From the NCBI GenBank assembly GCA_964590435.1, contig CAZPWT010000005.1, positions 67,470 to 131,469 on the forward strand: a DNA stretch of 64,000 nt, in the 5' to 3' direction. Source of the stretch: an uncultured Planctomycetia bacterium (GTDB lineage Bacteria > Planctomycetota > MHYJ01 > WSZJ01). Numbering within the stretch: the stretch's first letter is position 1; every line of letters starts with the position of its first letter. Position numbers and translations under genes: made by a program. Positions 2,045 to 61,322 of the stretch are shown here, one piece after another. Below the pieces are notes generated by a model that did no database searches, was not told where the DNA came from, and saw only the letters and a list, made by a program, of their open reading frames with translations.

Positions 2045-2052
2045 GTTGGGAG

Positions 2053-2270
2053 TTTGGGGTTCCGGAAGTTGAGTTCCGAGTTCCGGGTTCAGAATTCCGG
2101 GTTCGGTTCGGAGTGCGTGGTTTCGGGTTATTCAGCGTGTTCGGAGTTGGACACGCGACACAACCCGCAACCAACTCCCAACTCACTCAACAACTCCCGA
2201 CCCAAAACTCCGGACCGAACCCGGAACTCTGAACCCGGAACTCGGAACTCAACTTCCGGAACCCAAAACC
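2053..2270. repeat. ~218-bp imperfect palindrome built from GTTCCG/GAGTTC hexamer-like units, filling the convergent intergenic space; probable bidirectional terminator or REP/MITE-like element
   Basis: Left arm ttggggttccggaagttgagttccgagttccgggttcagaattccgggttcggttcggag. Right arm, reverse-complemented, is ggttttgggttccggaagttgagttccgagttccgggttcagagttccgggttcgg. The arms are near-identical, with nested inner inverted repeats (gtgttcggagttgg / ccaactcccaac). Confidence 0.8.
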
Positions 2271-2275
2271 AGCAA

Positions 2276-2818
2276 CTACCCGCGAAGCTCACTCTTCTTG
2301 AAAACGCTGGCGAGCTTCACTCCCATCTTTTCCAGCGCTTCCTTCCCTCCTTCTTCCCGGTCCACCAGCGCCACCGCCAGCAGGATCTCCGCGCCGACTT
2401 CCTCGCGCAGCCGCTCGATCGCCGTCACCGTCGAGCCGCCCGTCGTCACCACGTCGTCCACCACCACGACCTTCGCGCCGCGCGGCAGCTCCGGCCCCTC
2501 GATCGACTTCTTCGCCCCGTGCGCTTTAGCCTCCTTGCGCACGATGAACGCGTTGATCGGCGCCCCTTCGCGCGCGCTCTCGATCGCCACGCCCGCCGCG
2601 ATCGGGTCCGCGCCCAGCGTCAGCCCGCCCACCGCCTGCGGCTTCAGCGGCCGGATGATGTTCAGCATCTCCCTCGACGTCAGCAGCAGCCCGCGCGCAT
2701 TCAGCGTCACGAGACGGCAGTCGATGTAGAAGTCCGACTTCTTCCCCGAGGACAGCGTGAAGTCGCCGAATTTCACCACCGACTTCACGATCGCCAGCAG
2801 ATCCGCGCGATCCGGCAT
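2276..2818 (-). CDS. pyrE: Orotate phosphoribosyltransferase
   Basis: 180 aa; PRPP-binding motif VVVVDDVVTTGGS; typical OPRTase length and N-terminal FGDFTLSSGKKSDFY. Confidence 0.88.
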   Translation of the reverse strand: MPDRADLLAIVKSVVKFGDFTLSSGKKSDFYIDCRLVTLNARGLLLTSREMLNIIRPLKPQAVGGLTLGADPIAAGVAIESAREGAPINAFIVRKEAKAHGAKKSIEGPELPRGAKVVVVDDVVTTGGSTVTAIERLREEVGAEILLAVALVDREEGGKEALEKMGVKLASVFKKSELRG

Positions 2819-3139: not shown

Positions 3140-3252
3140 CGGTCATCTCCGTTCATACGAATCCCGGAGCATTGGACCAGCGCGGCGCGGCCGAGTCCAG
3201 AACCTCGAGCCCCATGCGCCCGACGCTGACCCCTTAACTCGCAACTCGGCCG

Positions 3253-3420
3253 CTTTTCCGGGGGTGGAAGGGGCTGGACGGTGGGTGGCGAGGCGGGCGC
3301 GCCGCAGGAACTCGGCGAGAAGCGCCGTCCCATCCAACGTCCTCGCCGCCATCCCCGCCGCTCTTCGCCCGGCGCGCCCGCCGAGCCCCCACCGTCCATC
3401 CCCTTCCACCCCCGGAAAAG
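3253..3420. repeat. Long inverted repeat (~50-bp arms, ~65-nt spacer) inside a 670-bp non-coding region
   Basis: Arm 3253-3304 is cttttccgggggtggaaggggctggacggtgggtggcgaggcgggcgcgccg. Arm 3370-3420, reverse-complemented, is cttttccgggggtggaaggggatggacggtgggggctcggcgggcgcgccg. The mirror-image spurious ORFs 3234..3500(-) and 3281..3517(+) both contain PPSSPFHPRKSG. Confidence 0.8.
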
Positions 3421-3807
3421 CGAGCAGCCCACCAAGCGCAGGGGGTTGACACTTGGTGAGCTGCCGCTCCAGGTTGGGCACACGCCCTGGGCCGGGCCAC
3501 ACGCCCGACCCCTGTAAGTTGTGATTTCGATCGGCCTCCGCGATTCGTTTTTCCGTCCGTGCGTGTCTTGCTGTCCGTTGTTTTTGTCGTGCGAGAAGGG
3601 ATATCGCAAGCGGAGTGCCGAACTAATGAAATCGCAACACGTTGTCGGCAAACGCTTTACGATAAGCTCCTCCTTTCCGTCTTTGTCCACATTCCCGGAC
3701 ATCCGAGGACACTCCTTGGCTCCTTCACCACATATCCCTTCAGCCCACCCCTCCCCCACGCCGATGAACCCTCGGAGTTTCGCAACCCCACGGCGAGGAG
3801 AGGCGCT

Positions 3808-5886: not shown

Positions 5887-7356
5887 CTACGGTTTCCAGG
5901 AGAGCTTGAGGATCTGGCCGGCCTGGACCACGGCGGGGTCCTTTGATAGCAGGCTGTGGGCCTGGACGTTCACGAGCCAGGCGCCGCGGCCGAAAAGGGC
6001 CTCGGCGTCGACGATGCCGCTGAATTCCCAGCCGCCGGCCTTGTCCTCGCCCTTGGACAGGACGTTCATCGCGGGGTCGGCGGCGAGCCAGTGGGCGGTC
6101 GCCGCGGCGCGCGAGACCTCGGCCACGCGGGTCAGCTTCGCGGTCGCGATCTCGTAGATCCACACCGACGTGTCGCGCTTGAGCCCGACGGACTCGAGCG
6201 ACGGCACCGGGTCCTCGCAGATCGCCAGCTCGCCGTGCGCGTTCACGTCCACGTTGTCGGGGCTCACGATCCCCTCGCTCCCGTCGAGCACGATCGTGAT
6301 CGTCCCCCCCGCCGCCGGGTCCTTCGGGTCCACCTCGAGCTTCCAGACGCGCCCGAGCGGATTCGCCGACTGCGGCCGCCCGGTCGTCGTGAAATACAGC
6401 GTCCCCGGGTGCGACGGGTCGGGCGCGCCGTCCTCGATGCGCACGAAACGGAACGCGCCCGCGGCCACGGCCGCCGCGTCGAGCCCCTCGTCGGTGAGCG
6501 ACGCATCCATCTCGACCCAGCGGCCCACGACGGCTTTCCCCTTCTCCGTCACTGCCGCTTCCGAAGACTGCGCAGCCTCCCGCGGCACGAACGTGAAGAG
6601 CTTCCCGCCACGGAGACCGTTGCGCGCGGCGGGGTCGGCGGCGGCCTTGTCCTTGGCGCCCACGTACAGGTAGAGCTCGGCGTGCAGCCCGTCGCCGGTC
6701 GCCGGCGCGTCCTCCAGCCCGACGACCGCGGTGACCGCGCCGGTCCCGGGGAGCACCGCGAGGTTCTCCCACGGCGCGCGGCCGAGTTTCGGAAGGGCGT
6801 ACAGCGCACCACCGGCCAGCGCGAACGCCTGTCCGCCGCGGCCGTCGCTCGTGTCCTTGCCGGACGTTTCCTCGCCCGCGAGGAACATCGGCGGGTCGAA
6901 TTCCTCGCGTTCGCCGGCGAGGTAGGCCGAGCAGAGTTTCGCGACTGCGACCTTCCCGGCCTCCGCCTTCGCGGCGGGCTCGCCGAACCAGACCTCGCGG
7001 ATCGCCGGGCGCCCCGAGACGACCTTGCCGCCCGCGAGGGCCAGCTCGCTGATCCGCGCCCCCGAAGCCAGCGGCCCTTCCGCCGCCCCCACCGCCTTCG
7101 GCCATTCATGGTTCACGAAGAGCGTCGCCCCGGCGCACCCCATCCCGTCAGGGACGCCGGGAAGCCGCCACGTCTCGCCGGCTGCGCCTCCGGTCAGCGG
7201 CACGCGCTCCCCGCTCGTGACCAGGATCTCCAACGACGCCCGCCCGTCCGCCGCCACCGCATACGGCGGCGCCGCAGCGCCCGACGGCGCCGGCGGCGGG
7301 CTGCACGAAGCGCCGGCCGCCGCCAGAAACAGAAATGCCGGGAGTGCGTTTCGCAT
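5887..7356 (-). CDS. Secreted PhoX-like (DUF839) beta-propeller phosphatase family protein
   Basis: Signal peptide MRNALPAFLFLAAAGASC; LFVNHEWP and SPDNVDVNAHGEL motifs resemble PhoX/DUF839. The assignment is tentative. Confidence 0.5.
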   Translation of the reverse strand: MRNALPAFLFLAAAGASCSPPPAPSGAAAPPYAVAADGRASLEILVTSGERVPLTGGAAGETWRLPGVPDGMGCAGATLFVNHEWPKAVGAAEGPLASGARISELALAGGKVVSGRPAIREVWFGEPAAKAEAGKVAVAKLCSAYLAGEREEFDPPMFLAGEETSGKDTSDGRGGQAFALAGGALYALPKLGRAPWENLAVLPGTGAVTAVVGLEDAPATGDGLHAELYLYVGAKDKAAADPAARNGLRGGKLFTFVPREAAQSSEAAVTEKGKAVVGRWVEMDASLTDEGLDAAAVAAGAFRFVRIEDGAPDPSHPGTLYFTTTGRPQSANPLGRVWKLEVDPKDPAAGGTITIVLDGSEGIVSPDNVDVNAHGELAICEDPVPSLESVGLKRDTSVWIYEIATAKLTRVAEVSRAAATAHWLAADPAMNVLSKGEDKAGGWEFSGIVDAEALFGRGAWLVNVQAHSLLSKDPAVVQAGQILKLSWKP

Positions 7357-7398: not shown

Positions 7399-7995
7399 CT
7401 ACTTGCGCACGACCGCAAACTCCTTCGTCGCCAGCACGCTCCCCTTCTCGTCCTGGATCTCCAGCTTCGCCTGCCCGACGCTCGAGGCGTCGATCCGCTT
7501 CGTCGTCCACGTCCGGAACGCGTTCGAGCCGATCGTGATCCACGCGCCCGTCGTGCTCTTGCCGTTCAGCGTCCAGACGGGGCGGACCTTCCGGCCCGAC
7601 CCGGACGAAAGGCGCATCCAGCAGTAGATGCGGCTCGTCTTCGTTGAGACCGACGTCGTCTCGTTCACCGGGTTGCGGTCCTTCACGCCGAGGCAGACCG
7701 CCAGCTTCTCGACCACCGGCGATCCTTTCGGGATCGGCGCTTCGATCACTGGCGGCGGCGGCGGCACGTTCGGCACCACAGCCGGCGGCGGCTTCACCGC
7801 CCCCGGCATCGGCGCCACCGGCGGCTTCGGCGCCGGCGCCGACACCAGCGTCACCGGCTGCTCCGGCTCCACCGGCGGCTCTTCGAATTTCACCACCCGC
7901 CGCCCCGCCTGGCGCATCACGCGCTCGACCGCGGCGAACAACCCGATTCCCAGCCCCCCGGCGATGAGGAGGCCCAGCACAATTCTCTGATTCAT
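7399..7995 (-). CDS. Membrane-anchored Pro-rich protein with a C-terminal beta-rich domain (DUF2914-like)
   Basis: Real start MNQRIVLGLLIAGGLGIGLFAAV (TM helix); Pro-rich spacer; C-terminal TSRIYCWMRLSSGSGRKVRPVWTLNGKS...WTTKRIDASSVGQAKLEIQDEKGSVLATKEF. Confidence 0.5.
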   Translation of the reverse strand: MNQRIVLGLLIAGGLGIGLFAAVERVMRQAGRRVVKFEEPPVEPEQPVTLVSAPAPKPPVAPMPGAVKPPPAVVPNVPPPPPVIEAPIPKGSPVVEKLAVCLGVKDRNPVNETTSVSTKTSRIYCWMRLSSGSGRKVRPVWTLNGKSTTGAWITIGSNAFRTWTTKRIDASSVGQAKLEIQDEKGSVLATKEFAVVRK

Positions 7996-12640: not shown

Positions 12641-12680
12641 GGAATTAATAATTCATAATTATGAATTATAAATTGTAAAT
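12641..12680. promoter_or_regulatory. AT-only 40-mer containing a perfect 22-bp palindrome in the divergent promoter region between the lipoprotein gene and top6B
   Basis: ggaattaATAATTCATAATTATGAATTATaaattgtaaattta; ATAATTCATAATTATGAATTAT (12648-12669) is its own reverse complement; the surrounding DNA is ~70 % GC. Confidence 0.6.
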
Positions 12681-12821
12681 TTAGTCCTCCCGCAGCCGCC
12701 CGCCTCTCCCCCGCCTTTCCTGTATTCCTTGCCACCTGCCCTCTCTCCGACTATCAATCCCCCTCAAGTTCCCCCCAACATTTGCCGAAAACCACCCCGG
12801 AGGACGGTGTACCCCGATCCC

Positions 12822-14681
12822 ATGAAAAAACGGCCCGGAACGAAGAAGGGGAAGCCGATGCAGCAGGACAAGATCGAGCCGGCGGCGGTGGCCGACAGCG
12901 CCCCCGCGGCCAAGGTCGTGCGGACACGCGGCGCCAAGGCGGCGGGTGAAGGCGCTTCCGAGGTGGTGGCGCCGAAGCGGCGCGGCCCGGCGCACGTGCC
13001 GCAGACCGCCGAGTCGCTCGCGAAGAAGCAGCGCGAGATCTCGGTCAGCGAGTTCTTCGCCAAGAACCGGCACCTGCTCGGGTTCGACAATCCCAAGCGC
13101 GCGCTGATGACGGCGGTCAAGGAGGCGGTCGACAACTCGCTCGACGCCTGCGAGGAGGCCGGGATCCTGCCGGACCTGCTCGTCGAGCTCAAGATGATCA
13201 ACGAAGAGCGCTTCCGCATGATCGTCGAGGACAACGGCCCGGGGATTATCAAGGCGCAGGTGCCGAAGATTTTCGGGAAGCTGCTCTACGGTTCGAAGTT
13301 CCACACGATGAAGCAGTCGCGCGGGCAGCAGGGGATCGGGATTTCGGCCGCGGGGCTGTACGCGCAGATCACGACGGGGCAGCCGGTGCGGATCGCGACG
13401 CGGACGGGGGCGAAGAAGCCCGTCTACGAGTGCGAGCTGACGCTGGACACGACGAAAAACCAGGCGGAGCTGTCGAGCGAGAAGGAATCGGCGGAGTGGC
13501 ACCGCGAGCACGGGACGCGCGTCGAGATCGAGTTCGAGGGGAAGTACGAGAAGGGCCGCCGGAGCGTGGACGAGTACATCCGCGAGACGGCGATCGCGAA
13601 CCCGCACCTGACGCTGACGTACATCACGCCGCTGGGCGAGAAGATCGTGTACAGCCGGCAGGTGGACACGAACCCGGAGCCGCCGAAGGAAATCAAGCCG
13701 CACCCGTACGGCGTCGAGCTCGGGACGCTGATGAAGATGATGCGGTCGACCGAGGAGAAGAAGATGCAGGGGTTCCTCTGCAACGACTTCTCGCGCGTCT
13801 CGAGCCAGGTCGCGCACGAGATCCTCGGCAAGGCGGGGCTCACGAGCAACACGTGGGTGCAGTCGATGGGGCCGAAGGAAGCCGAGGCGCTCTACAAGGC
13901 GATCAACGCCACGAAGATCATGGCGCCGCCCACGAACTGCATCTCGCCGATCGGCGAGGACCGGATCCTGGCGGGGCTGAAGGCGACGGTGAAGGCGAAG
14001 TGCTACGTGGCGACGACGCGCCGCCCGAGCGTCTACCGCGGCAACCCGTTCCTGCTCGAGGCCGCGATCGCGTGGGACTGCGAGGGCATGGACGCCGAGG
14101 ATCCCGTCACGCTGTTCCGCTACGCCAACCGCGTCCCGCTGCTCTACCAGCAGTCGGCGTGCGCGATCACGCAGGCCGCCATCGAGACGTCGTGGAAGAA
14201 CTACGGCCTCTCGCAGCCGCGCGGCTCGCTCCCCATCGGCCCCGCCGTCGTCTTCATCCACTTCGCGTCCGTCTGGGTCCCGTTCACGAGCGAATCCAAG
14301 GACGCGATTGCGAACTACGCCGAGGTCGAGAAGGAGATCAAGCTCGCCCTCCAGGACGTGGGCCGCAAGATCGGGACGTTCATCCGCCAGCAGGAACACG
14401 CGGAGCGCGAGGCGAAGCGCCGGCAGATCTTCGAGAAGTACGCCGCGATCCTCGCCAAGAGCCTGGCCCGCATCACGCACAAGGGGCTGATCAAGAAGGC
14501 GACCGAGAAGACGATCGAGTCCAAGGCGTCGAAGATCAACTACTGGCTGCAGAAGATCGCCAAGCGCGAGAGCGCCGCGGCGGACAAGCTGGTGAAGGGC
14601 GCGATCCAGGAAGTGCATGAAGCGGTGCACATCGTCGAGACGCCGGCGCCGCCGAAGGACAAGCCGGAGGGGCAGGACTAG
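12822..14681 (+). CDS. top6B: DNA topoisomerase VI subunit B (GHKL ATPase plus transducer) with a basic N-terminal extension
   Basis: [22 protein letters not shown] (N-terminal strap); Bergerat-fold motifs [17 protein letters not shown] and GxxGxG-like [15 protein letters not shown]; the downstream H2TH/transducer region. The start is ambiguous (12729, 12822 or 12858). Confidence 0.85.
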
Positions 14682-14695
14682 CCGGGGGCAGGTCG

Positions 14696-14851
14696 CCGCA
14701 TCCTTTTTGATCCTTTCTTATCCGTGACCCCGCCTTTCGTATCGCCGTTCATCCCGTCACTCATCCAGCTTTCGGAAACCGGATGAAAGACGGATTCAAC
14801 GGCGATAAGAACGACTTGGTCACAGATTGAAAAGGATGAAAAAGGATGCGG
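14696..14851. repeat. ~155-bp imperfect palindrome (~75-nt arms, ~80 % identity) occupying the top6B-top6A intercistronic gap
   Basis: Left arm is ccgcatcctttttgatcctttcttatccgtgacc...tatcgccgttcatcccgtcactcatccagctttcgg. Right arm, reverse-complemented, is ccgcatcctttttcatccttttcaatctgtgacc...tatcgccgttgaatccgtctttcatccggttt. There are internal direct repeats (tcctttttgatcctttc; gaaaaggatgaaaaaggatg). Confidence 0.8.
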
Positions 14852-14889
14852 CAGGCGGGGACGAAACATCCATTCCTTGAGGGGCTGCC

Positions 14890-15993
14890 ATGATCGCGAC
14901 CATCAGGAAGAACGACAAAATCCTCAAATCGCTCTTCAACCTCGGCACCGACGCGGTCGAGGAGATCAAGAAGCAGAAGAACCCTTCGGTCGACATCCCG
15001 CTCCGAAACCTCTCGAACGTCAACTTCAACCCGAAGAAGGCGATCATCGAGATGGGCCGCGCGAAGCAGTCGCGCGAGTTCTTCAACATCGGGATGGCGA
15101 AGAAGTACATGCAGACGTTCCTGGTCGCGGAGAAAGCGAAGGACCTGCTGGACGAGGGGAAGACGACCAGCATTCGTGACCTGTACTACATGGCCAAGCG
15201 CACGATCCCCGGCACGTCGGAGAACACGTTCGACGAGCAGGAAGAGTCGGACCCGATCATCGAGGACCTCGAGGTTACGGCGGATGCCCTTCGCGAGGAG
15301 CTCGGGCTGTTTGCGTCGAACAAGGGCGCGCTCGTCGGCGAGCTGACCCTGCGCGACATGGGAGACACGATCGACGCGCGCAAGATGGGGTCAGGCGGCT
15401 GGTCGATCCCGTCGATCTGCGAACCGAACATCGTCCAGTTCAAGCGTTGCGACGCGAAGTTCATCCTGCTCGTGGAAAAGGACGCGGTCTGGCGGCGCCT
15501 GAACGAGGACAAGTTCTGGAAGAAGCACAAGTGCATCCTGCTGCACGGGCAGGGCCAGCCGCCGCGCGGCGTCCGTCGCCTGCTGCACCGGATGGTGAAC
15601 GAGCTCAAGCTTCCGCTCTACACGTTCGTGGATAACGACCCGTGGGGCTACTACATCTACAGCGTCGTCAAGCAGGGCTCGATCAACCTCGCGTACGAGT
15701 CCGTCCGCATGGCCGTTCCGCAGGCGAAGTTCGTCGGCCTCTCGAGCTTCGACAAGGAGCGCTGGAAGATCGACGACACCGTCACGATCAAGCTCAACGA
15801 CGAGGACACGCGCCGCGCGAAGCAGATCATGGAGTACCCGTGGTTCCAGAAGAAGCACTGGCAGGTCGAGATCAAGAACATGCTGCGGCTGGGCTACAAG
15901 CTGGAGCTGGAAGCGCTGTCGAACCGCGGGATCTCGTTTGTGACAGATGAGTACCTGCCGAAGAAGATCAGGGACAAGGAGTTTCTCGACTGA
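14890..15993 (+). CDS. top6A: DNA topoisomerase VI subunit A (Spo11/Top6A; winged-helix catalytic Tyr plus Toprim)
   Basis: RDLYYMAKRTIP (catalytic-Tyr region); Toprim acidic motifs LLVEKDAV and FVDNDPWGYYIY; 367 aa. Confidence 0.88.
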   Translation: MIATIRKNDKILKSLFNLGTDAVEEIKKQKNPSVDIPLRNLSNVNFNPKKAIIEMGRAKQSREFFNIGMAKKYMQTFLVAEKAKDLLDEGKTTSIRDLYYMAKRTIPGTSENTFDEQEESDPIIEDLEVTADALREELGLFASNKGALVGELTLRDMGDTIDARKMGSGGWSIPSICEPNIVQFKRCDAKFILLVEKDAVWRRLNEDKFWKKHKCILLHGQGQPPRGVRRLLHRMVNELKLPLYTFVDNDPWGYYIYSVVKQGSINLAYESVRMAVPQAKFVGLSSFDKERWKIDDTVTIKLNDEDTRRAKQIMEYPWFQKKHWQVEIKNMLRLGYKLELEALSNRGISFVTDEYLPKKIRDKEFLD

Positions 15994-16026
15994 AAGACGT
16001 CGAAGGTCGAAAGTTGAAGGTCGAAG
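15991..16026. repeat. GTCGAAGG-family repeat copy (tgaaagacgtcgaaggtcgaaagttgaaggtcgaag) just after the top6A stop
   Basis: Shares a >=20-nt identity (tgaaagacgtcgaaggtc) with the copy at 29954; the same GTCGAAGG units recur at 28664-28700. Confidence 0.7.
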
Positions 16027-16047: not shown

Positions 16048-16087
16048 GAAAAAAGGGCGCGGCCAATGGCCGCGCCCTTTTTTGTTT
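16048..16087. terminator. Bidirectional intrinsic terminator shared by top6A (+) and the skp-like gene (-)
   Basis: aaaaaaGGGCGCGGCCaatGGCCGCGCCCtttttt: a perfect 10-bp stem between an A-run and a T-run. Confidence 0.9.
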
Positions 16088-16754: not shown

Positions 16755-16854
16755 GGTCTCCTGTCAGGAAAGGTGCGGTGTGTGGTTTCGGCGAATGGCG
16801 CGGAAGGATAAGGCCCCGGACGGGAAAGGCCAAGAACCCAAATTTCGCGGGGGA

Positions 16855-17000
16855 GTTGCGGATTTGCGGGTTCCGTTCCGGGTTCGGGGTTCGGAGTTCC
16901 GGGAGGTTTGGCGTTTCGAGTCGAGAGTGCGGTTGCCGGCGAGGCCGCCTCCCGGTGGTCTCGGAATCCGGAACCCCGAACGCCGAACTGAACCCGAATA
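16855..17000. repeat. GTTCCG/GTTCGG hexamer-repeat hairpin element in the divergent skp / SNF2 intergenic region
   Basis: Left arm is gcgggttccgttccgggttcggggttcggagttccgggagg. Right arm is cctcccggtggtctcggaatccggaaccccgaacgccgaactgaacccg. Same unit architecture as 2053-2270 and 55404-55524. Confidence 0.65.
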
Positions 17001-17057
17001 CTCGAGACTCCCCGTCTCAAGCCGCTCCCCCTTCCCTGCCGATATTGTGTAAACCCC

Positions 17058-28485: not shown

Positions 28486-28663
28486 GAATCCTCCTGGTTA
28501 CTGCGGTTGACCCGTCATTGTACGCCCGCTCCGTCCCGCGGGCCTCTGGAGATTCAACGAGCGGCGCGCGGGGACGTTGGGTGGGAAGCGGATTTTCCTG
28601 GAGGAACCGTTGGCGGGCGAAATGCGCGCACTCGGTCGAGAGCCCCTTCCAATCCCACTCAAC

Positions 28664-28700
28664 CTTCGACTTTCGACCTTCGACGCATTCTTCGACGCCT
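28664..28700. repeat. GTCGAAGG-family repeat copy between gspF and gspG
   Basis: ccttcgactttcgaccttcgacgcattcttcgacgcc: the reverse-complement form of the GTCGAAGG units, with a short internal inverted repeat (gtcgaagaatgcgtcgaag). Confidence 0.65.
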
Positions 28701-29953: not shown

Positions 29954-30053
29954 TTGAAAGACGTCGAAGGTCTAAGGTCGAAGGTTAACCGCGTCCGAAC
30001 GGGAGCCGGCATTGCTCGGGCCGGCCTTCGACTTTCGACCTTCGACCTTCGAC
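29954..30053. repeat. GTCGAAGG-family inverted repeat between gspE and gspF
   Basis: tgaaagacgtcgaaggtctaaggtcgaagg ... ccttcgactttcgaccttcgaccttcgacg (30-nt arms, 40-nt spacer). Confidence 0.8.
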
Positions 30054-30057
30054 GCCG

Positions 30058-36651: not shown

Positions 36652-36778
36652 TGCCCTTCCAACGACGCAGCCCGATTTCGGTTGAGAGGCGCCCCTGCAG
36701 AAACACAAAAGGCGCCGCAGGCCGTTGCCCGCAGCGCCTTTCCACCGTTTCCACAATCCACGAACCACGAACCACCAA

Positions 36779-37627
36779 CTACTTCTTCGGCGGCTCCTCC
36801 GCCTTCTTCGGCTCCTCGACCTTCACGCCGAAGAACTTCAGCTTCCCGCGCGCCGTCTTCGCTTCTTCCGAGTCCGGCCAGCGATCGTTCACTTTCTTCC
36901 ACAGCTCGATCGCTTCCTTGCGCTGGTTCTTCTTGGAAAGGTCCGCGGCCTGGGCCATCAGGTCCTTGCGCTCCTTCTCTTCGGCGGCGATCCGCACCTT
37001 CTCGACTGCTTCCTGCGCCTTCACCGCGTCTTCTTTCGCCTTGGCGAGCCCCTCTTCCAGTTTCTTCTGCGCCTCGTCGTACGCCGCCTTGAAGTCGGCG
37101 TTCCCCTCGAGCTGCTTGTACCAGTCGTCCGCGGCCTTGCGCTCGGGGCGGCCTTCGAACCAGTGGCGCAGGTAAACCATCTTGGAAACGGCCGTCTTGA
37201 AGTCCCCGGCCTGCGCCGCGACGGCCATGCCGTTGTGGAGGCCGTAGCAGACTTCCTCGGCGAAAGCGTCGTCATGCGGCTTGCCCTTGCACTCGACCAG
37301 CTTGTTCCCCATCGGGTCCACCAGCATGAGGCGGGGGAAGCTGTCGACGCCGTACTGTTTCGCCGCGGCGGAACCTTCTTTCTCGGCGTTGAGGTGAACG
37401 CACACGAACGCCTTCAGGAACTCCTGGACCTCGGTGCGCGGATACGTATCCGTATCCATCTTCTTGCAGTACTTTCACCAGTCCGTGTAGAAGTCGAGAT
37501 ACATCAGTTTGCCTTCAAGTCCGGCCTTGACCTTCGCCTCCTCGAACGACTTCTCCCAGGCGACGCCGCCGGCGTGGGCGCTGGTGGCGGCAAGAAGGGC
37601 AAAGACGGCTGACGCCAATCGTTTCAT
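36779..37627 (-). CDS. Secreted thioredoxin-fold (DsbD-gamma/TlpA-like) protein with an in-frame TGA replacing the first Cys of CxxC; candidate selenoprotein (UxxC)
   Basis: Read across the TGA at 37475-37477, the frame gives MKRLASAVFALLAATSAHAGG...KLMYLDFYTDW-U-KYCKKMDTDTYPRTEVQEFLKAFVCVHLNAEKEG...YGVDSFPRLMLVDPMGNK. This is the DLYADWCVACK.../...LLGLPT... thioredoxin pattern. The ORF track split it into 36779..37459 plus a cryptic upstream part. Confidence 0.65.
37438..37459 (-). other. Stem-loop 17 nt downstream of the in-frame UGA; candidate bacterial SECIS element
   Basis: mRNA ...UGA AAG UAC UGC AAG AAG AU-GGAUACG-GAUA-CGUAUCC-G: a 7-8 bp stem with a 4-nt loop. The spacing is compatible with bacterial SECIS positioning. 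Confidence 0.4.
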
Positions 37628-42845: not shown

Positions 42846-43532
42846 ATGCTTCACCGGATCCTGGCCGGGTTCCTGGCCGCGGCGTTCCTGACCAGCCTGG
42901 TCAGCGCCGAGGGGGAAGGGAAAGACGAGGGCCCGGGCGGCAAGCCGCCGAAGGGCAAGGACGGCGGCCCGGGGCCGAAAGGTCCGCCGCCCCCGGGGTG
43001 CCACTGCGCCTGCGGCTGCCCGGAGGACAAGGGCCCCAAAGGGCCGCCCCCTCCGCCGAAGGACAAGGACGGGAAGCCTCTTCCCCCTCCGGACGGCACG
43101 GAGGACCTGAAGGGCGACGGCGGGGCGCCGCCGCCTCCTCCCCCGCCGAAGGACGATCCGGGCGCACCGCCGCCGAAGGACGGCAAGCGGCCGCCGATGC
43201 CGCCCCCGCCGCCGTGCGGGTGCAAGTGCTGCAAACCGCCGCTTCCGCCGAAGGACGGTGAGAAGCCGCCGCCTCCGCCGAAGGATGGCGACAAGCCCCC
43301 GATGCCTCCCAAGGACGGCGAAAAGCCGCCCCCGCCGCCCAAGGACGGGGACAAGCCGCCGGTGCCGCCCAAGGACGGAGAGAAGCCGCCTCCGCCGCCG
43401 AAGGGCCACGGATGCCCCTGTCATCATCGCCCGCCGCCCCCGCCGCCCAAGGATGGCGAAAAGCCGCCGATGCCCCCGAAGGACGGCGAGAAACCGCCGA
43501 TGCCGCCGCCCGACGAGGGCGAGGACAAGTAA
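42846..43532 (+). CDS. Secreted proline-rich tandem-repeat protein with Cys/His clusters
   Basis: Signal peptide MLHRILAGFLAAAFLTSLVSAEG; about eight 10-aa repeats PPKDGEKPPP / PPKDGDKPPM encoded by a ~30-bp tandem DNA repeat with synonymous drift; GCHCACGCP, CGCKCCKPP and GHGCPCHH clusters. Confidence 0.65.
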   Translation: MLHRILAGFLAAAFLTSLVSAEGEGKDEGPGGKPPKGKDGGPGPKGPPPPGCHCACGCPEDKGPKGPPPPPKDKDGKPLPPPDGTEDLKGDGGAPPPPPPPKDDPGAPPPKDGKRPPMPPPPPCGCKCCKPPLPPKDGEKPPPPPKDGDKPPMPPKDGEKPPPPPKDGDKPPVPPKDGEKPPPPPKGHGCPCHHRPPPPPPKDGEKPPMPPKDGEKPPMPPPDEGEDK

Positions 43533-54550: not shown

Positions 54551-55402
54551 ATGCGCGCTTCCGCCTTCGCCCTCCTCCTCCTCGCCGCCGCCCCGTGCTT
54601 CGCCGGAGACACGCGCATCGAGCGGACCGTCGACTGGGAAGCGGAGCGTCCCGGGCAGCGCCCCGAGCGCACCAATCGCCGCGAGACGCTCTGGGTCGGC
54701 GAAGGGCGCGTCCGTTGCGACGACCGGGTCGGCAGGGAAACCTGGATCGTCCGCGGGGACCTCAAGGTGATCTGGCGCATCGACCACGCGCTTCGGACGT
54801 ACACGGAAACGACGTACGAGGAAGCGGCGAAGGGGCGCGCGGCGGCCGCCGCGGACGTGAAGGCGGCGCTGGCGCGCGTCGCGGGAAGCGGCGACGAGGC
54901 CGGACTGCAGCGCTTCGTGGAGGCGCTGGAACCCGCGGAAGCCGAGGGCGCGCTGACGGAATCGGGGGACGGCGGGATGGTGGCGGGGAAGGCGACAAAG
55001 GCGGTGGCGTTCGAGGCGAAAGGCGCGCCGCCCGTGAAAGGGAAACTGGCGGCAGGATCCGACCGGCTGGCGAAAGTCCTCGGGGAAGCGGGCGTGCTGG
55101 CGCCGGCGGTCGCGGCGGCGCTGGCGAAATCGAAAGGGATACTGCTGGCCGGATCATGGACGCTGGTGTTTGCGGACGCGGTGGTGCGCGAGACGTTCGA
55201 AACGACGAAGGTGGAGGAGGCGGCCGCGCCCGAGGGGACGTACGACCTCCCCGCGGGGTATCGCAAGGTGGCGGGGCCCGCGATGGGCCGCGCGCCGCGC
55301 GGCGAACTGGCGCCCCCCGGCGGCTTCGAGGGCGACGCGCCCGGCACCGAACCCGAGCCCGGCGAAGGGCCTGCGGGCGAAGAGGCGGGGAAGGACGAGT
55401 AA
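54551..55402 (+). CDS. Secreted hypothetical protein with an acidic C-terminal tail
   Basis: Signal peptide MRASAFALLLLAAAPCFA; the C-terminus GDAPGTEPEPGEGPAGEEAGKDE is acidic. Confidence 0.5.
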   Translation: MRASAFALLLLAAAPCFAGDTRIERTVDWEAERPGQRPERTNRRETLWVGEGRVRCDDRVGRETWIVRGDLKVIWRIDHALRTYTETTYEEAAKGRAAAAADVKAALARVAGSGDEAGLQRFVEALEPAEAEGALTESGDGGMVAGKATKAVAFEAKGAPPVKGKLAAGSDRLAKVLGEAGVLAPAVAAALAKSKGILLAGSWTLVFADAVVRETFETTKVEEAAAPEGTYDLPAGYRKVAGPAMGRAPRGELAPPGGFEGDAPGTEPEPGEGPAGEEAGKDE

Positions 55403-55403
55403 C

Positions 55404-55533
55404 GACGAGTTGCGAGTTACGGGTTGCGGGTTGCGAGGGACAGCCCTGACGCCGGCGGTGGGCGTGAGACCACCCGCGCGATCCGGCACTTCTCGCAACC
55501 CGGAACTCGCAACTCGCAACTCGTCTTTTTGCT
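55404..55533 (+). terminator. GTTGCG hexamer-repeat hairpin followed by a T-run; intrinsic terminator for the upstream gene and a member of the hexamer-hairpin repeat family
   Basis: acgagttgcgagttacgggttgcgggttgcgag ... ctcgcaacccggaactcgcaactcgcaactcgt cttttt. Confidence 0.7.
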
Positions 55534-56124: not shown

Positions 56125-56215
56125 GTGGTCACGAGTGAGGCGCCGATTGCGGCGTTCGGCGCCGTCACTCAACACTCAAATCTCACCACTCAACACTCCC
56201 CAGGCGCGGCGAAAG

Positions 56216-61173: not shown

Positions 61174-61282
61174 CTGGATCATCCGGGGTCCCGAAGGAGG
61201 AGGCGAAAAGGGACGTGGGCTGGACGGATCATACCGGGGGGAGCGGGAGGAGGGAATGCGGGAGTTTGGACGGAAAAGACGA

Positions 61283-61322
61283 ATATTCAATAGTCAATAT
61301 TGAATATGAAATATTGAATGAT
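61283..61322. promoter_or_regulatory. AT-only repeat/palindrome cluster ~110 bp upstream of cdaA
   Basis: gaATATTCAATAgtcaaTATTGAATATgaaATATTGAATgatcg: an inverted pair ATATTCAATA / TATTGAATAT plus a third direct copy, within 70 % GC DNA. Confidence 0.55.

What the first reader, a model, noticed from the sequence alone, without database searches (positions are those of the whole stretch)
14696..14851. 155-bp imperfect palindrome wedged between top6B and top6A
The 208-bp gap between the two topoisomerase subunit genes is almost entirely one long inverted repeat, with ~75-nt arms at about 80 % identity. The arms begin with identical 13-mers (ccgcatccttttt) and share tatcgccgtt blocks. There are internal direct repeats (tcctttttgatcctttc; gaaaaggatgaaaaaggatg) and a central palindromic core (catccagctttcggaaaccggatg).

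Subunit genes of one enzyme are normally overlapping or tightly coupled. A highly structured 150-nt RNA or DNA cruciform here could be a MITE-like insertion, an RNase/attenuation element setting B:A stoichiometry, or a protein-binding site. Its AT-richer composition (~45 % GC) differs from the genome.
Basis: seen in the sequence. Interest (0 to 1): 0.6.

Follow-up and report, generated by a model that had tools for sequence, protein, structure and literature searches.

The report
Fast-evolving palindrome splitting topoisomerase VI operon
A real 158-bp imperfect palindrome, built from short phased repeats, sits between the two topoisomerase VI genes of an uncultured planctomycete, but only two closely related species carry it, so it looks like an intergenic hairpin repeat of an already known general type and not a conserved topoisomerase regulator.

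Summary
Arms 14695-14771 and 14776-14852 are 77 nt long and 78% complementary, with a 4-nt loop. They fill most of the 208-nt gap between top6B and top6A (RNA fold z = -6.9; 50% GC against 68% for the window).

The element is lineage-specific. It occurs in the window species, a 98%-identical strain (L120) and a sister species (L004). It is absent from the next relatives, whose gaps are -4, 30 and 47 nt, and from 84 other top6 loci.

Between window and L004 the sequence has diverged about as much as synonymous sites, yet both keep about 57 pairs. Fourteen of 63 pairs changed on both sides and stayed paired. A 10-nt phased motif changed in concert in every copy, from ATCCNT to ATTCNC.

I found no second copy in any searched sequence, no Rfam match and no U-tract after the hairpin. 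The window and a relative hold several other intergenic palindromes made of short tandem repeats.

The best reading is an inverted pair of short-repeat arrays that arose in a recent ancestor. It is probably co-transcribed as a long intercistronic mRNA hairpin. MITE status could not be settled without the whole genome. A topoisomerase-specific role is not supported.

The parts
12729..14681 (+). top6B (topoisomerase VI subunit B); the start codon is uncertain, the stop TAG is at 14679-14681
   Evidence: ORF. Pfam Topo-VIb_trans 6.7e-53 plus HATPase_c.
14682..14694 (+). 5' spacer between the top6B stop and the palindrome (13 nt)
   Evidence: Sequence. No similarity to the L004 5' spacer.
14695..14771 (.). 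Left arm of the palindrome. It is pyrimidine-rich, with ATC(C) phased at 14700, 14710, 14720, 14741, 14751 and 14763.
14700..14729 (+). Three tandem 10-nt units: ATCCTTTTTG, ATCCTTTCTT, ATCCGTGACC. The orthologous units in L004 are ATTCTCTTTT, ATTCTCCTT, ATTCGCGACT.
14772..14775 (.). 4-nt apex between the arms. RNAfold opens a 14-nt loop.
14776..14852 (.). Right arm, purine-rich mirror of the left arm, with GAT at 14782, 14793, 14804, 14825, 14835 and 14845. All three differences from strain L120 lie here (14819, 14824, 14828).
14818..14847 (+). Mirror copies of the three 10-nt units (GGTCACAGAT TGAAAAGGAT GAAAAAGGAT)
14853..14889 (+). 3' spacer. It holds a seventh direct copy of the motif (CATCC 14867-14871; ATCC at 14868) and the top6A Shine-Dalgarno-like GAGGGG (14879-14884), which lies outside the hairpin. 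It is hypervariable between strains (6 of 37 positions).
14692..14703 (+). Left copy of an imperfect 12-nt direct repeat, GTCGCCGCATCC. The right copy, GACGAAACATCC, is at 14860-14871 (8 of 12 identical, CATCC exact). L004 has the analogous CAGGCGAATTC / CACGCAATTCC.
   Evidence: This is either a possible target duplication or a seventh motif copy.
14890..15993 (+). top6A (topoisomerase VI subunit A)
   Evidence: Pfam TOP6A-Spo11_Toprim 5.5e-61 and TP6A_N.
16049..16084 (.). Canonical bidirectional intrinsic terminator, AAAAAAGGGCGCGGCCAATGGCCGCGCCCTTTTTTG, that closes the operon

Best explanation
The element is a lineage-specific quasi-palindrome made of two inverted arrays of short (about 10-nt) tandem repeats. 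It arose or was inserted in the formerly tight top6B-top6A junction in the common ancestor of two closely related planctomycete species.

It belongs to a structural class that is common in this genome and in one close relative (L006): intergenic hairpins whose arms are short tandem repeats. It is not a conserved part of topoisomerase VI regulation.

Its arms do not evolve independently. Substitutions are matched on the opposite arm and across repeat units. This could come from templated arm-to-arm correction and slippage, from selection for pairing, or from both, so the hairpin persists while the sequence drifts at a near-neutral rate.

Inferred mechanism: there is no U-tract after the hairpin, and the operon's canonical terminator lies after top6A. 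The element is therefore probably transcribed inside the top6BA mRNA, where it would form a hairpin of about 57 bp starting 14 nt after the top6B stop. That hairpin would uncouple top6A translation from top6B, and top6A keeps its own SD outside the stem. It could also act as a 3'-exonuclease barrier or a double-strand RNase site, as ERIC, REP and Correia hairpins do in other bacteria. That would make the B:A mRNA ratio unequal.

Shown: the anatomy, the lineage restriction, the homology with L004, the correlated arm and unit changes, and the absence of a terminator tail. Inferred: co-transcription, RNA folding in vivo, and any effect on expression.
For: Anatomy and fold.

Lineage restriction: the element is present in the window and L001-3, in L120 and in L004. 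It is absent in L005, L006 and L009 and in 84 further top6 loci searched with a covariance model.

Homology with L004: a covariance model built from window plus L120 scores 46.7 bits, E about 1e-8, at the same position.

Divergence: intergenic identity is 54%, against 62% at fourfold-degenerate sites of top6A.

Non-independent arms:
- Within-species arm identity is 0.78 and 0.72, against 0.64 and 0.63 between orthologous arms; the shuffle null is 0.52 +/- 0.03.
- Binomial P = 0.005 and 0.09 for the two species.
- Of 63 pairs, 30 are unchanged, 14 changed on both sides and stay paired, 6 changed on one side to G.U, and 13 are lost.
- In the outer 37 rungs, changes co-occur on both arms with hypergeometric P = 0.012. 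Six of the 7 compensated rungs fall at period-10 positions: rungs 8/18/28 go C-G to U-A and rungs 11/21/31 go U-A to C-G.

Structural class: other palindromes of short tandem repeats are in the window at 2045-2276, 16850-17013, 29962-30054 and 55401-55528, and in L006 at 3304-3403, 6399-6495 and 7815-7952.

Not a terminator: there is no T-run on either side, while a canonical terminator sits at 16049-16084.

The top6A SD lies outside the stem in both species.

Published analogues: inverted pairs of heptamer arrays close behind ORFs in Xanthomonas (PMC4692102); Correia elements bind and are cut by RNase III (PMC2649163).
Against: - Only three sequences from two diverged lineages exist, and the pair counts come from an alignment fitted to the structure.
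- The three most recent substitutions, polarised with L004, all break pairs. This shows no sign of current purifying selection on pairing.
- A 5-6-nt deletion in the L004 left arm is not matched on the right arm.
- Strand asymmetry is inconsistent. In the window the minus-strand RNA folds better (-102 against -81 kcal/mol; 7 A.C mismatches against 1 G.U). In L004 the plus strand folds better (-68 against -59). This argues against selection on the sense RNA specifically.
- The unit length (10 nt) and the 4-nt apex differ from the heptamer-based palindromes elsewhere in the window, so assigning it to that class rests on architecture only.
- No expression data are available.
Confidence: 0.5

Rival explanations
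1. It is a MITE: a non-autonomous transposon with terminal inverted repeats and subterminal transposase-binding repeats. It inserted between top6B and top6A and is one of several or many copies in the genome.
For: - It is an insertion relative to the outgroups.
- It is AT-richer than the host.
- It has identical 14-nt termini and three subterminal 10-nt repeats on each arm.
- An imperfect direct repeat brackets it: GTCGCCGCATCC / GACGAAACATCC in the window, and the analogous pair in L004.
- In other lineages the palindromes at this junction are dispersed repeats. L084's recurs in L092, L070's in L110 and L098, and L110's in L066.
Against: - No second copy was found in the 64-kb window by BLAST or by covariance model, or in about 40 kb of close relatives.
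- The terminal 18-mer gives only chance-level single hits in GTDB representatives, none from a planctomycete.
- The 24-base two-block pattern gives no hit in JGI metagenomes.
- Plasmids and phages give no match, and IMG/VR gives a single one-ended match to the terminal 17-base pattern that I judged to be chance.
- Translating the element found no related small ORFs among 1.84 billion proteins.
- The right copy of the direct repeat lies 7-15 nt outside the palindrome end, not flush against it.
- A fixed dead copy would not be expected to change all motif copies in concert.
Confidence: 0.2
2. It is a dedicated cis-regulatory RNA, kept by selection to set the Top6B:Top6A ratio. It would act as a processing site, attenuator or stabiliser.
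For: - It sits inside an operon, 14 nt after a stop codon.
- The hairpin is kept in two species despite near-neutral sequence divergence, with 14 compensated pairs.
- Between strains the element differs at 1.9% of positions, against 4.9% at third codon positions; Poisson P = 0.05.
Against: - It is absent from the 84%-identity relatives and from 84 other top6 loci.
- There is no consistent G.U bias on the sense strand.
- The recent substitutions break pairs, and the indel is uncompensated.
- There is no Rfam match above noise; the best is 27.5 bits against a gathering score of 84, to a miRNA hairpin model.
- Similar palindromes lie between divergent and convergent genes, where no such role applies.
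Confidence: 0.15
3. It works at the DNA level. It would be a symmetric array of helically phased sites (ATCCNT every 10-10.5 bp, six per arm, plus one downstream) for a DNA-binding protein, and/or a curved or cruciform-forming segment. It might respond to supercoiling inside a topoisomerase operon.
For: - ATC is phased at 0, 10, 20, 41, 51 and 63 nt along the arm and mirrored on the other arm; L004 keeps the same phasing (0, 10, 19, 40, 50).
- T-tracts and A-tracts are in phase.
- All six outer motif copies in L004 and five of six in the window (all six in strain L120), and the seventh downstream copy, carry the species-specific variant: ATCCNT in the window, ATTCNC in L004. This fits sites co-evolving with a factor.
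- Complementarity is at the DNA level: 0 G.U among the 57 plus-strand pairs in the window.
Against: - No candidate protein has been identified.
- The phased motif occurs nowhere else in the window.
- Complementarity extends well beyond the motif.
- The periodicity follows automatically if the arms began as tandem 10-nt repeats.
- The concerted C-to-T change could be a context-specific mutation.
Confidence: 0.08
4. It is a young palindrome in plain neutral decay, a single inverted-duplication accident with no maintenance and no function.
For: - All three polarised recent substitutions break pairs.
- L004 has an unmatched deletion.
- Overall sequence divergence is near the synonymous rate.
Against: - The arms within a species are more alike than orthologous arms between species. 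Independent decay cannot produce this.
- Fourteen pairs changed on both sides.
- Twelve parallel changes occur at two motif positions across six units.
Confidence: 0.07

Closest known systems
Inverted pairs of short tandem-repeat arrays in intergenic DNA (GGGAATC heptamer pairs of Xanthomonas; heptamer repeats of Nostoc/Anabaena), PMC4692102
   Same: Two arrays of a short tandem unit face each other and can form a stem-loop or cruciform. They lie in intergenic DNA close behind the upstream ORF: on average 28 nt in Xanthomonas and 14 nt here. Array length varies between related species while the arrangement is kept. The function is unknown. The same window holds typical heptamer versions.
   Different: The unit here is about 10 nt and pyrimidine-rich, not a G-rich heptamer. 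Only the outer third is an obvious tandem array. The arms are contiguous, with a 4-nt apex. This unit is not dispersed at other loci in the available sequence.
ERIC / IRU elements of enterobacteria (about 127-bp imperfect palindromes transcribed within operons; my own knowledge, reviewed in PMC3184786)
   Same: It is an imperfect palindrome along its whole length and of similar size. It lies between co-directional genes and would be transcribed into a long hairpin that can change the stability of flanking mRNA segments.
   Different: ERIC is a multicopy family with a conserved consensus sequence. No sequence similarity was found here, and no second copy.
Correia repeat-enclosed elements (Neisseria MITE), PMC2649163
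   Same: It is a roughly 100-160-bp inverted-repeat element inserted next to or between genes. Its transcript forms a hairpin that binds RNase III and is cleaved or protected by it. It shows presence/absence differences between close relatives.
   Different: Correia elements are in hundreds of copies, have 26-bp terminal repeats around a non-palindromic core, a TA duplication and an IHF site. None of these was seen here.
REP / REPIN elements, PMC3116915 and PMC3733652
   Same: They are hairpin-forming intergenic repeats that are kept by compensatory changes.
   Different: REPINs are high-copy, are tagged with GTAG or CGTC, and are associated with a RAYT transposase. This element has no such tag at its ends, and no second copy lies in 64 kb.
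Quasipalindrome template-switch correction (templated mutagenesis in imperfect inverted repeats; my own knowledge)
   Same: It would explain, without selection, why a change on one arm is copied to the other arm.
   Different: It is a mutational process, not an element family. Its operation here is inferred only from the pattern of substitutions.

Membership tests
MITE | Several dispersed, similar copies in the same genome | tested here: inconclusive
   There is one copy in the 64-kb window. There is none in L005, L006 or L009, and none in the public collections scanned by exact terminal patterns. The rest of the source genome could not be reached.
MITE | Terminal inverted repeats | tested here: met
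   The outermost 14 nt (GCCGCATCCTTTTT) are exactly inverted, and the whole element is an inverted repeat.
MITE | Target-site duplication flush with the ends | tested here: inconclusive
   The imperfect direct repeat GTCGCCGCATCC / GACGAAACATCC exists (8 of 12 identical). However, the right copy lies 7 nt beyond the palindrome end and the left copy is part of the stem.
MITE | Empty sites in relatives | tested here: met
   L005, L006 and L009 have gaps of 30, 47 and -4 nt without the element.
MITE | A parent insertion sequence with matching ends | not tested
   No search for transposase genes was made, and most of the genome is unavailable.
REP / REPIN | High copy number (tens to hundreds per genome) | tested here: not met
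   No second copy lies in the 64-kb window. At 300 copies in a genome of about 6 Mb (my assumption), about 3 would be expected.
REP / REPIN | GTAG or CGTC tag at one end (PMC3733652) | tested here: not met
   The ends read GCCGC... and ...GCGGC. One internal CGTC/GACG pair (14755/14797) is at chance expectation.
Intrinsic (factor-independent) terminator | G+C-rich stem followed directly by a U-run | tested here: not met
   The scan finds no terminator-like site at the element. The bases after the stem are AGGCGGGG on the + strand and GACCTGCC on the - strand. A canonical terminator exists at 16049-16084.
Any Rfam family | Score at or above the family's gathering threshold | tested here: not met
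   The best match is mir-582 at 27.5 bits against a gathering score of 84. Nothing in the whole window reaches a gathering score.
Integron attC site | R''/R' core sites (RYYYAAC ... GTTRRRY) at the ends of an imperfect palindrome, next to gene cassettes and an integrase | tested here: not met
   The ends are GCCGCAT... and ...ATGCGGC. The flanking genes are a conserved operon in syntenic context.
Inverted pairs of short tandem-repeat arrays (PMC4692102) | Each arm is a tandem array of a short unit and the arms are in inverted orientation | tested here: met
   TRF gives period 10 at 14700-14723 and 14830-14848. ATC is phased through the whole arm and mirrored on the other arm.
Inverted pairs of short tandem-repeat arrays (PMC4692102) | The same unit recurs at many intergenic loci of the genome | tested here: not met
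   The phased ATCCNT pairs occur only in this element within the window. Other units, such as GTCGAAG, do recur.

The most novel reading that the evidence does not exclude
The palindrome is a DNA-level control element of a topoisomerase operon. Seven helically phased ATCCNT sites, arranged symmetrically on a cruciform-prone curved segment, would be bound by a factor that co-evolves with them (ATTCNC in the sister species). Alternatively the segment would extrude as a function of superhelical density. Either way, topoisomerase VI subunit A expression would respond to DNA topology.
Probability: 0.06. Interest if true: 0.7.

Novelty: new member of a known kind. Interest (0 to 1): 0.3.

Why it matters
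If the main reading holds, this is a clean natural example of how a tightly coupled two-subunit operon tolerates the birth of a long intercistronic hairpin. The junction is a 4-nt ATGA overlap in one relative. It is also an example of how such a hairpin persists through correlated change of both arms and of its repeat units while its sequence drifts at a near-neutral rate. That bears on how to read 'covariation' in palindromic DNA: correlated changes need not mean a selected RNA structure.

It also flags this planctomycete clade as rich in palindromes made of short tandem repeats. That class is described in Xanthomonas and cyanobacteria, and its function is still unknown. It does not change what is known about topoisomerase VI regulation.

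Tried and rejected
1. Copy-number test in public data.
- The terminal pattern GCCGCATCCTTTTTNATCC against GTDB representatives gave 28 single, one-ended hits in unrelated phyla, which is chance level. The source genome is not in that collection, and none of the hits extends by BLAST.
- The two-block pattern against JGI metagenomes gave nothing.
- IMG/VR gave one chance hit. BLAST in distant mode against plasmids and phages gave nothing.

2. ORF trick. I searched the 63-aa minus-strand ORF that overlaps the element against 1.84 billion proteins, hoping other copies had been called as genes. It gave only two marginal hits inside long unrelated proteins.

3. More orthologues.
- A JGI scan with Top6A found nothing closer than 75% identity.
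- A search with the Top6B C-terminus returned one fragment, which led to L120.
- A search with the Top6A N-terminus returned nothing above 72%.

4. The MAFFT/RNAalifold alignment of window against L004 slipped by one repeat unit on the right arm. I discarded it in favour of a manual alignment and a covariance-model-guided one.

5. Terminator, promoter, attC, Rfam RNA and tRNA/tmRNA readings were all rejected.

6. A 15-codon upstream ORF (14846-14893) has a TGA stop that overlaps the top6A ATG. It is kept in L120 with 4 amino-acid changes but is out of frame in L004, and its ATG is buried in the stem. I judged it coincidental.

7. The covariance-model hit to L006 7812-7956 (22.6 bits, E about 0.01) is another repeat-built hairpin, made of CCTTTC units, and is not a convincing homologue.

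Full report
OBSERVATION. The repeat finder reports arms 14695-14771 and 14776-14852, 77 nt each, 78% complementary and 4 nt apart. The outermost 13-mer CCGCATCCTTTTT is exact on both arms. The TATCGCCGTT/AACGGCGATA blocks and the 10-nt direct repeats are present. The flanking ORFs are topoisomerase VI subunit B (12729-14681) and subunit A (14890-15993) by Pfam, so the gap is 208 nt. As RNA the gap folds at -96.5 kcal/mol against -65.5 +/- 4.5 for dinucleotide shuffles (z = -6.9). GC is 0.50 for the 158 bp against 0.68 for the window. The same sequence is in three independent Logan assemblies and, with three changes, in an ENA assembly. It is therefore not an assembly artefact.

CONTEXT. The closest named Top6A relatives are annotated as Planctomycetota/Planctomycetia MAGs. 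Gene order around the operon is conserved in L006 and L009: a DUF2914 gene and a small gene on the minus strand, then top6B, top6A, OmpH on the minus strand and an SNF2 helicase. The operon ends in a textbook bidirectional intrinsic terminator at 16049-16084, so this organism uses U-tract terminators. The palindrome has no T-run after it on either strand, and the scan finds no terminator or sigma-70-like promoter there. The SD-like GAGGGG of top6A (14879-14884) lies outside the stem.

DISTRIBUTION. Only three lineages carry the element:
- the window species (L001-L003 are identical);
- strain L120, 98% identical in DNA;
- L004, whose Top6A is 91% identical. Its 194-nt gap holds a hairpin of different sequence at the same place (-76.3 kcal/mol, z = -7.2).

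The next relatives (84% Top6A identity) have gaps of 30 nt (L005), 47 nt (L006-L008) and a 4-nt ATGA overlap (L009, L011), with no element. A covariance model built from window plus L120 finds the L004 element at 46.7 bits, E about 1e-8. It finds nothing convincing elsewhere in the window, in L005, L006 or L009, or in 84 other top6 loci. The element is therefore homologous and orthologous in two sister species and arose after they split from the 84% relatives.

Across 57 more distant junctions the gap is 5 nt or less in 23, 6-60 nt in 14, 61-200 nt in 16 and more than 200 nt in 4 (start calls are approximate). Several of the long gaps hold unrelated strong hairpins: L084 z = -11.9, L092 z = -6.2, L070 z = -14. 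Some of these are dispersed repeats that recur at other places in other loci. The junction is evidently a tolerated landing or growth site for palindromic repeats.

HOW IT EVOLVES. Between window and L004 the top6A fourfold-degenerate sites are 62% identical and the intergenic region is 54% identical. BLAST cannot even detect the L004 element with the window element as query. Yet each species keeps 57-58 pairs.

The arms are more alike within a species (0.78 and 0.72) than the same arm is between species (0.64 and 0.63; shuffle null 0.52 +/- 0.03). Independent decay from even a perfect ancestral palindrome cannot give this result (binomial P = 0.005 and 0.09).

On the covariance-model-guided alignment, the 63 pairs split as follows: 30 unchanged, 14 changed on both sides and still paired, 6 changed on one side to G.U, 6 deleted in L004, 5 broken in L004 and 2 broken in the window. 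This alignment is fitted to the structure, so the counts lean towards it.

In the gapless outer 37 rungs, changes co-occur on the two arms (9 observed, 5.3 expected, P = 0.012). Seven of them keep the pair.

Six of those seven fall at period-10 positions. The three tandem units per arm read ATCCTTTTTG, ATCCTTTCTT, ATCCGTGACC in the window and ATTCTCTTTT, ATTCTCCTT, ATTCGCGACT in L004. Motif positions 3 and 6 therefore differ in all six units, while unit 3 keeps its own distinctive tail in both species. The three-unit layout thus predates the split, and the units changed in parallel afterwards. A seventh, direct copy downstream of the stem follows the same rule: ATCCAT at 14868 in the window and ATTCCC at 1944 in L004.

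The motif is helically phased along the whole arm. ATC starts at 14700, 14710, 14720, 14741, 14751 and 14763, mirrored by GAT at 14782-14845. In L004, TTC starts at 1799, 1809, 1818, 1838 and 1848.

EVIDENCE THAT TEMPERS A SELECTED-RNA READING.
- The window hairpin has no G.U among its 57 plus-strand pairs. Seven of its 17 mismatches are A.C, which would be G.U on the minus strand, so the minus-strand RNA folds better (-102 against -81 kcal/mol). In L004 the plus strand folds better (-68 against -59). The complementarity is therefore a DNA-level property with no consistent sense-strand signature.
- The three differences between the window and L120 all lie in 14819-14828. Polarised with L004, each is a derived change that breaks a pair: two in the window and one in L120.
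- A 5-6-nt deletion in the L004 left arm is not matched on the right arm.
- Between strains the element differs at 1.9% of positions, against 4.9% at third codon positions (P = 0.05). The 37-nt 3' spacer differs at 16% (P = 0.01). The numbers are small.

COPY NUMBER. I could not find a second copy. BLAST and the covariance model find one copy in the window. Searches of GTDB representatives, JGI metagenomes, IMG/VR, plasmids and phages gave only chance hits or nothing. The source genome is not among the GTDB representatives and is not in the JGI collection, so about 99% of it remains unsearched. A high-copy family such as REPINs is unlikely. A low-copy MITE is not excluded.

A GENOME-WIDE CLASS. 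The window contains other long palindromes whose arms are short tandem repeats:
- 2045-2150 / 2171-2276 (GAGTTCC-type heptamers, 106-nt arms), filling the gap between two convergent genes;
- 16850-16904 / 16959-17013 (CGGGTTC), between the divergent OmpH and SNF2 genes;
- 29962-29985 / 30031-30054 (GTCGAAG / CCTTCGA);
- 55401-55437 / 55492-55528 (CGAGTTG / CTCGCAA), between co-directional genes and starting at the stop codon.

The gene frames come from a rough GC3-based call. L006 has four such palindromes in 21 kb, at places where the window has none, and the window has some where L006 has none. They are therefore gained and lost quickly. The top6 element shares the architecture: two inverted arrays of a short unit, starting 14 nt behind an ORF. 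It differs in unit length (10 nt, not 7), composition and its 4-nt apex. The closest published description is the inverted pairs of GGGAATC heptamer arrays in Xanthomonas. Those lie on average 28 nt behind the upstream ORF, keep their arrangement between species while lengths change, and have no established function (PMC4692102).

MOST LIKELY MECHANISM. Shown: a lineage-specific quasi-palindrome of repeat arrays, with correlated evolution of arms and units, no terminator tail, and the top6A SD outside the stem. Inferred: it is read through as part of the top6BA mRNA and folds into a hairpin of about 57 bp. That hairpin would end translational coupling and could block 3' exonucleases or attract a double-strand-specific RNase. 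ERIC and REP hairpins are said to do this (my knowledge; review PMC3184786), and Correia elements do so with RNase III (PMC2649163).

The correlated changes are best explained by arm-to-arm templated correction and slippage within the arrays, possibly helped by weak selection for pairing. I give this composite reading about 0.5. The rivals are a low-copy MITE (0.2), a dedicated selected regulatory RNA (0.15), a DNA-level protein-binding or cruciform element (0.08) and plain neutral decay (0.07).

COMPARISON AND NOVELTY. It works like ERIC, REPIN or Correia hairpins inside operons, and it is built like the Xanthomonas-type inverted repeat arrays. It is not a member of any sequence-defined family: it has no Rfam match, no GTAG/CGTC tag, no attC core sites and no terminator tail, and multicopy status is not shown (see the membership table). 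I rate it a new member of a known kind.

The unusual part is the concerted change of a phased motif on both arms. This is also a caution for interpreting 'compensatory' changes in palindromic DNA as evidence for RNA structure. A topoisomerase-specific function is not supported, because almost all orthologous operons lack the element.

Noticed in passing
window 3415-3520 (also L006 about 1232-1340 and L009, alignment columns 277-382): A block of about 110 nt is almost invariant among three relatives whose flanking intergenic DNA cannot be aligned: GGAAAAGCGAGCAGCCCACCAAGCGCAGGGGGTTGACACTTGGTGAGCTGCCGCTCCAGG...CCCCTGTAAGTT. It contains TTGACA and lies upstream of the + gene that starts at 3559. 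There is no Rfam, tRNA or tmRNA match. It is a candidate promoter plus leader, or an undescribed small RNA.
   Followed up: partly
window 3251-3285 / 3388-3422; L006 1074-1122 / 1191-1239: A G-rich/C-rich inverted repeat (35-nt arms, 97% complementary) lies in a divergent intergenic region. It is recognisably homologous between the window and the 84% relative L006, and lies directly 5' of the conserved block above.
   Followed up: partly
window 12643-12685: A strongly AT-rich island in a 68% GC genome lies just upstream of top6B. It has AATTAAT/AATTATA heptamer repeats and a perfect 18-bp palindrome, AATTCATAATTATGAATT (12650-12667). It may be the promoter or operator region of the operon.
   Followed up: no
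window 2045-2276, 16850-17013, 29962-30054, 55401-55528; single arrays at 15999-16026, 28662-28684, 36758-36779, 56166-56198, 61281-61319: Heptamer tandem repeats, often as inverted pairs that form long hairpins, occupy many intergenic regions. They frequently start at or right after a stop codon. The unit GTCGAAG/CTTCGAC recurs at several loci.
   Followed up: partly
L006 3304-3403, 6399-6495, 7815-7952: The 84% relative has its own repeat-built hairpins (CCAACT-type, CACGGAGNN and CCTTTC units). They lie at intergenic sites where the window has none, including one just upstream of top6B, so turnover is rapid.
   Followed up: partly
L084 2357-2452, L092 2329-2452 and 3593-3646, L070 2101-2500, L091/L110 2347-2470, L098 535-595: Distant top6B-top6A junctions carry unrelated strong palindromes (z down to -14). 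Pieces of them recur at other positions in other loci, so they are dispersed REP-like repeats of those organisms.
   Followed up: partly
window 14846-14893: A 15-codon upstream ORF (MRQAGTKHPFLEGLP) has a TGA stop that overlaps the top6A ATG in an ATGA arrangement. It is open in L120 with 4 amino-acid changes and out of frame in L004. Its ATG lies in the stem.
   Followed up: yes
window 14853-14889: The spacer between the palindrome and top6A differs at 6 of 37 positions between two strains, while third codon positions differ by 4.9%. It is a local hotspot of unknown cause.
   Followed up: partly
L120 1-91: The first 90 nt or so of this ENA contig do not match top6B at all, while the rest is 98% identical. 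The contig end is probably chimeric or misassembled.
   Followed up: no
window 43232-43508: Tandem repeats of 30 and 60 nt (about 5.8 copies; CAAGCCGCCGCCGCCGCCCAAGGACGGCGA) lie at the start of a large + strand ORF. They probably encode a proline/lysine-rich repeat.
   Followed up: no
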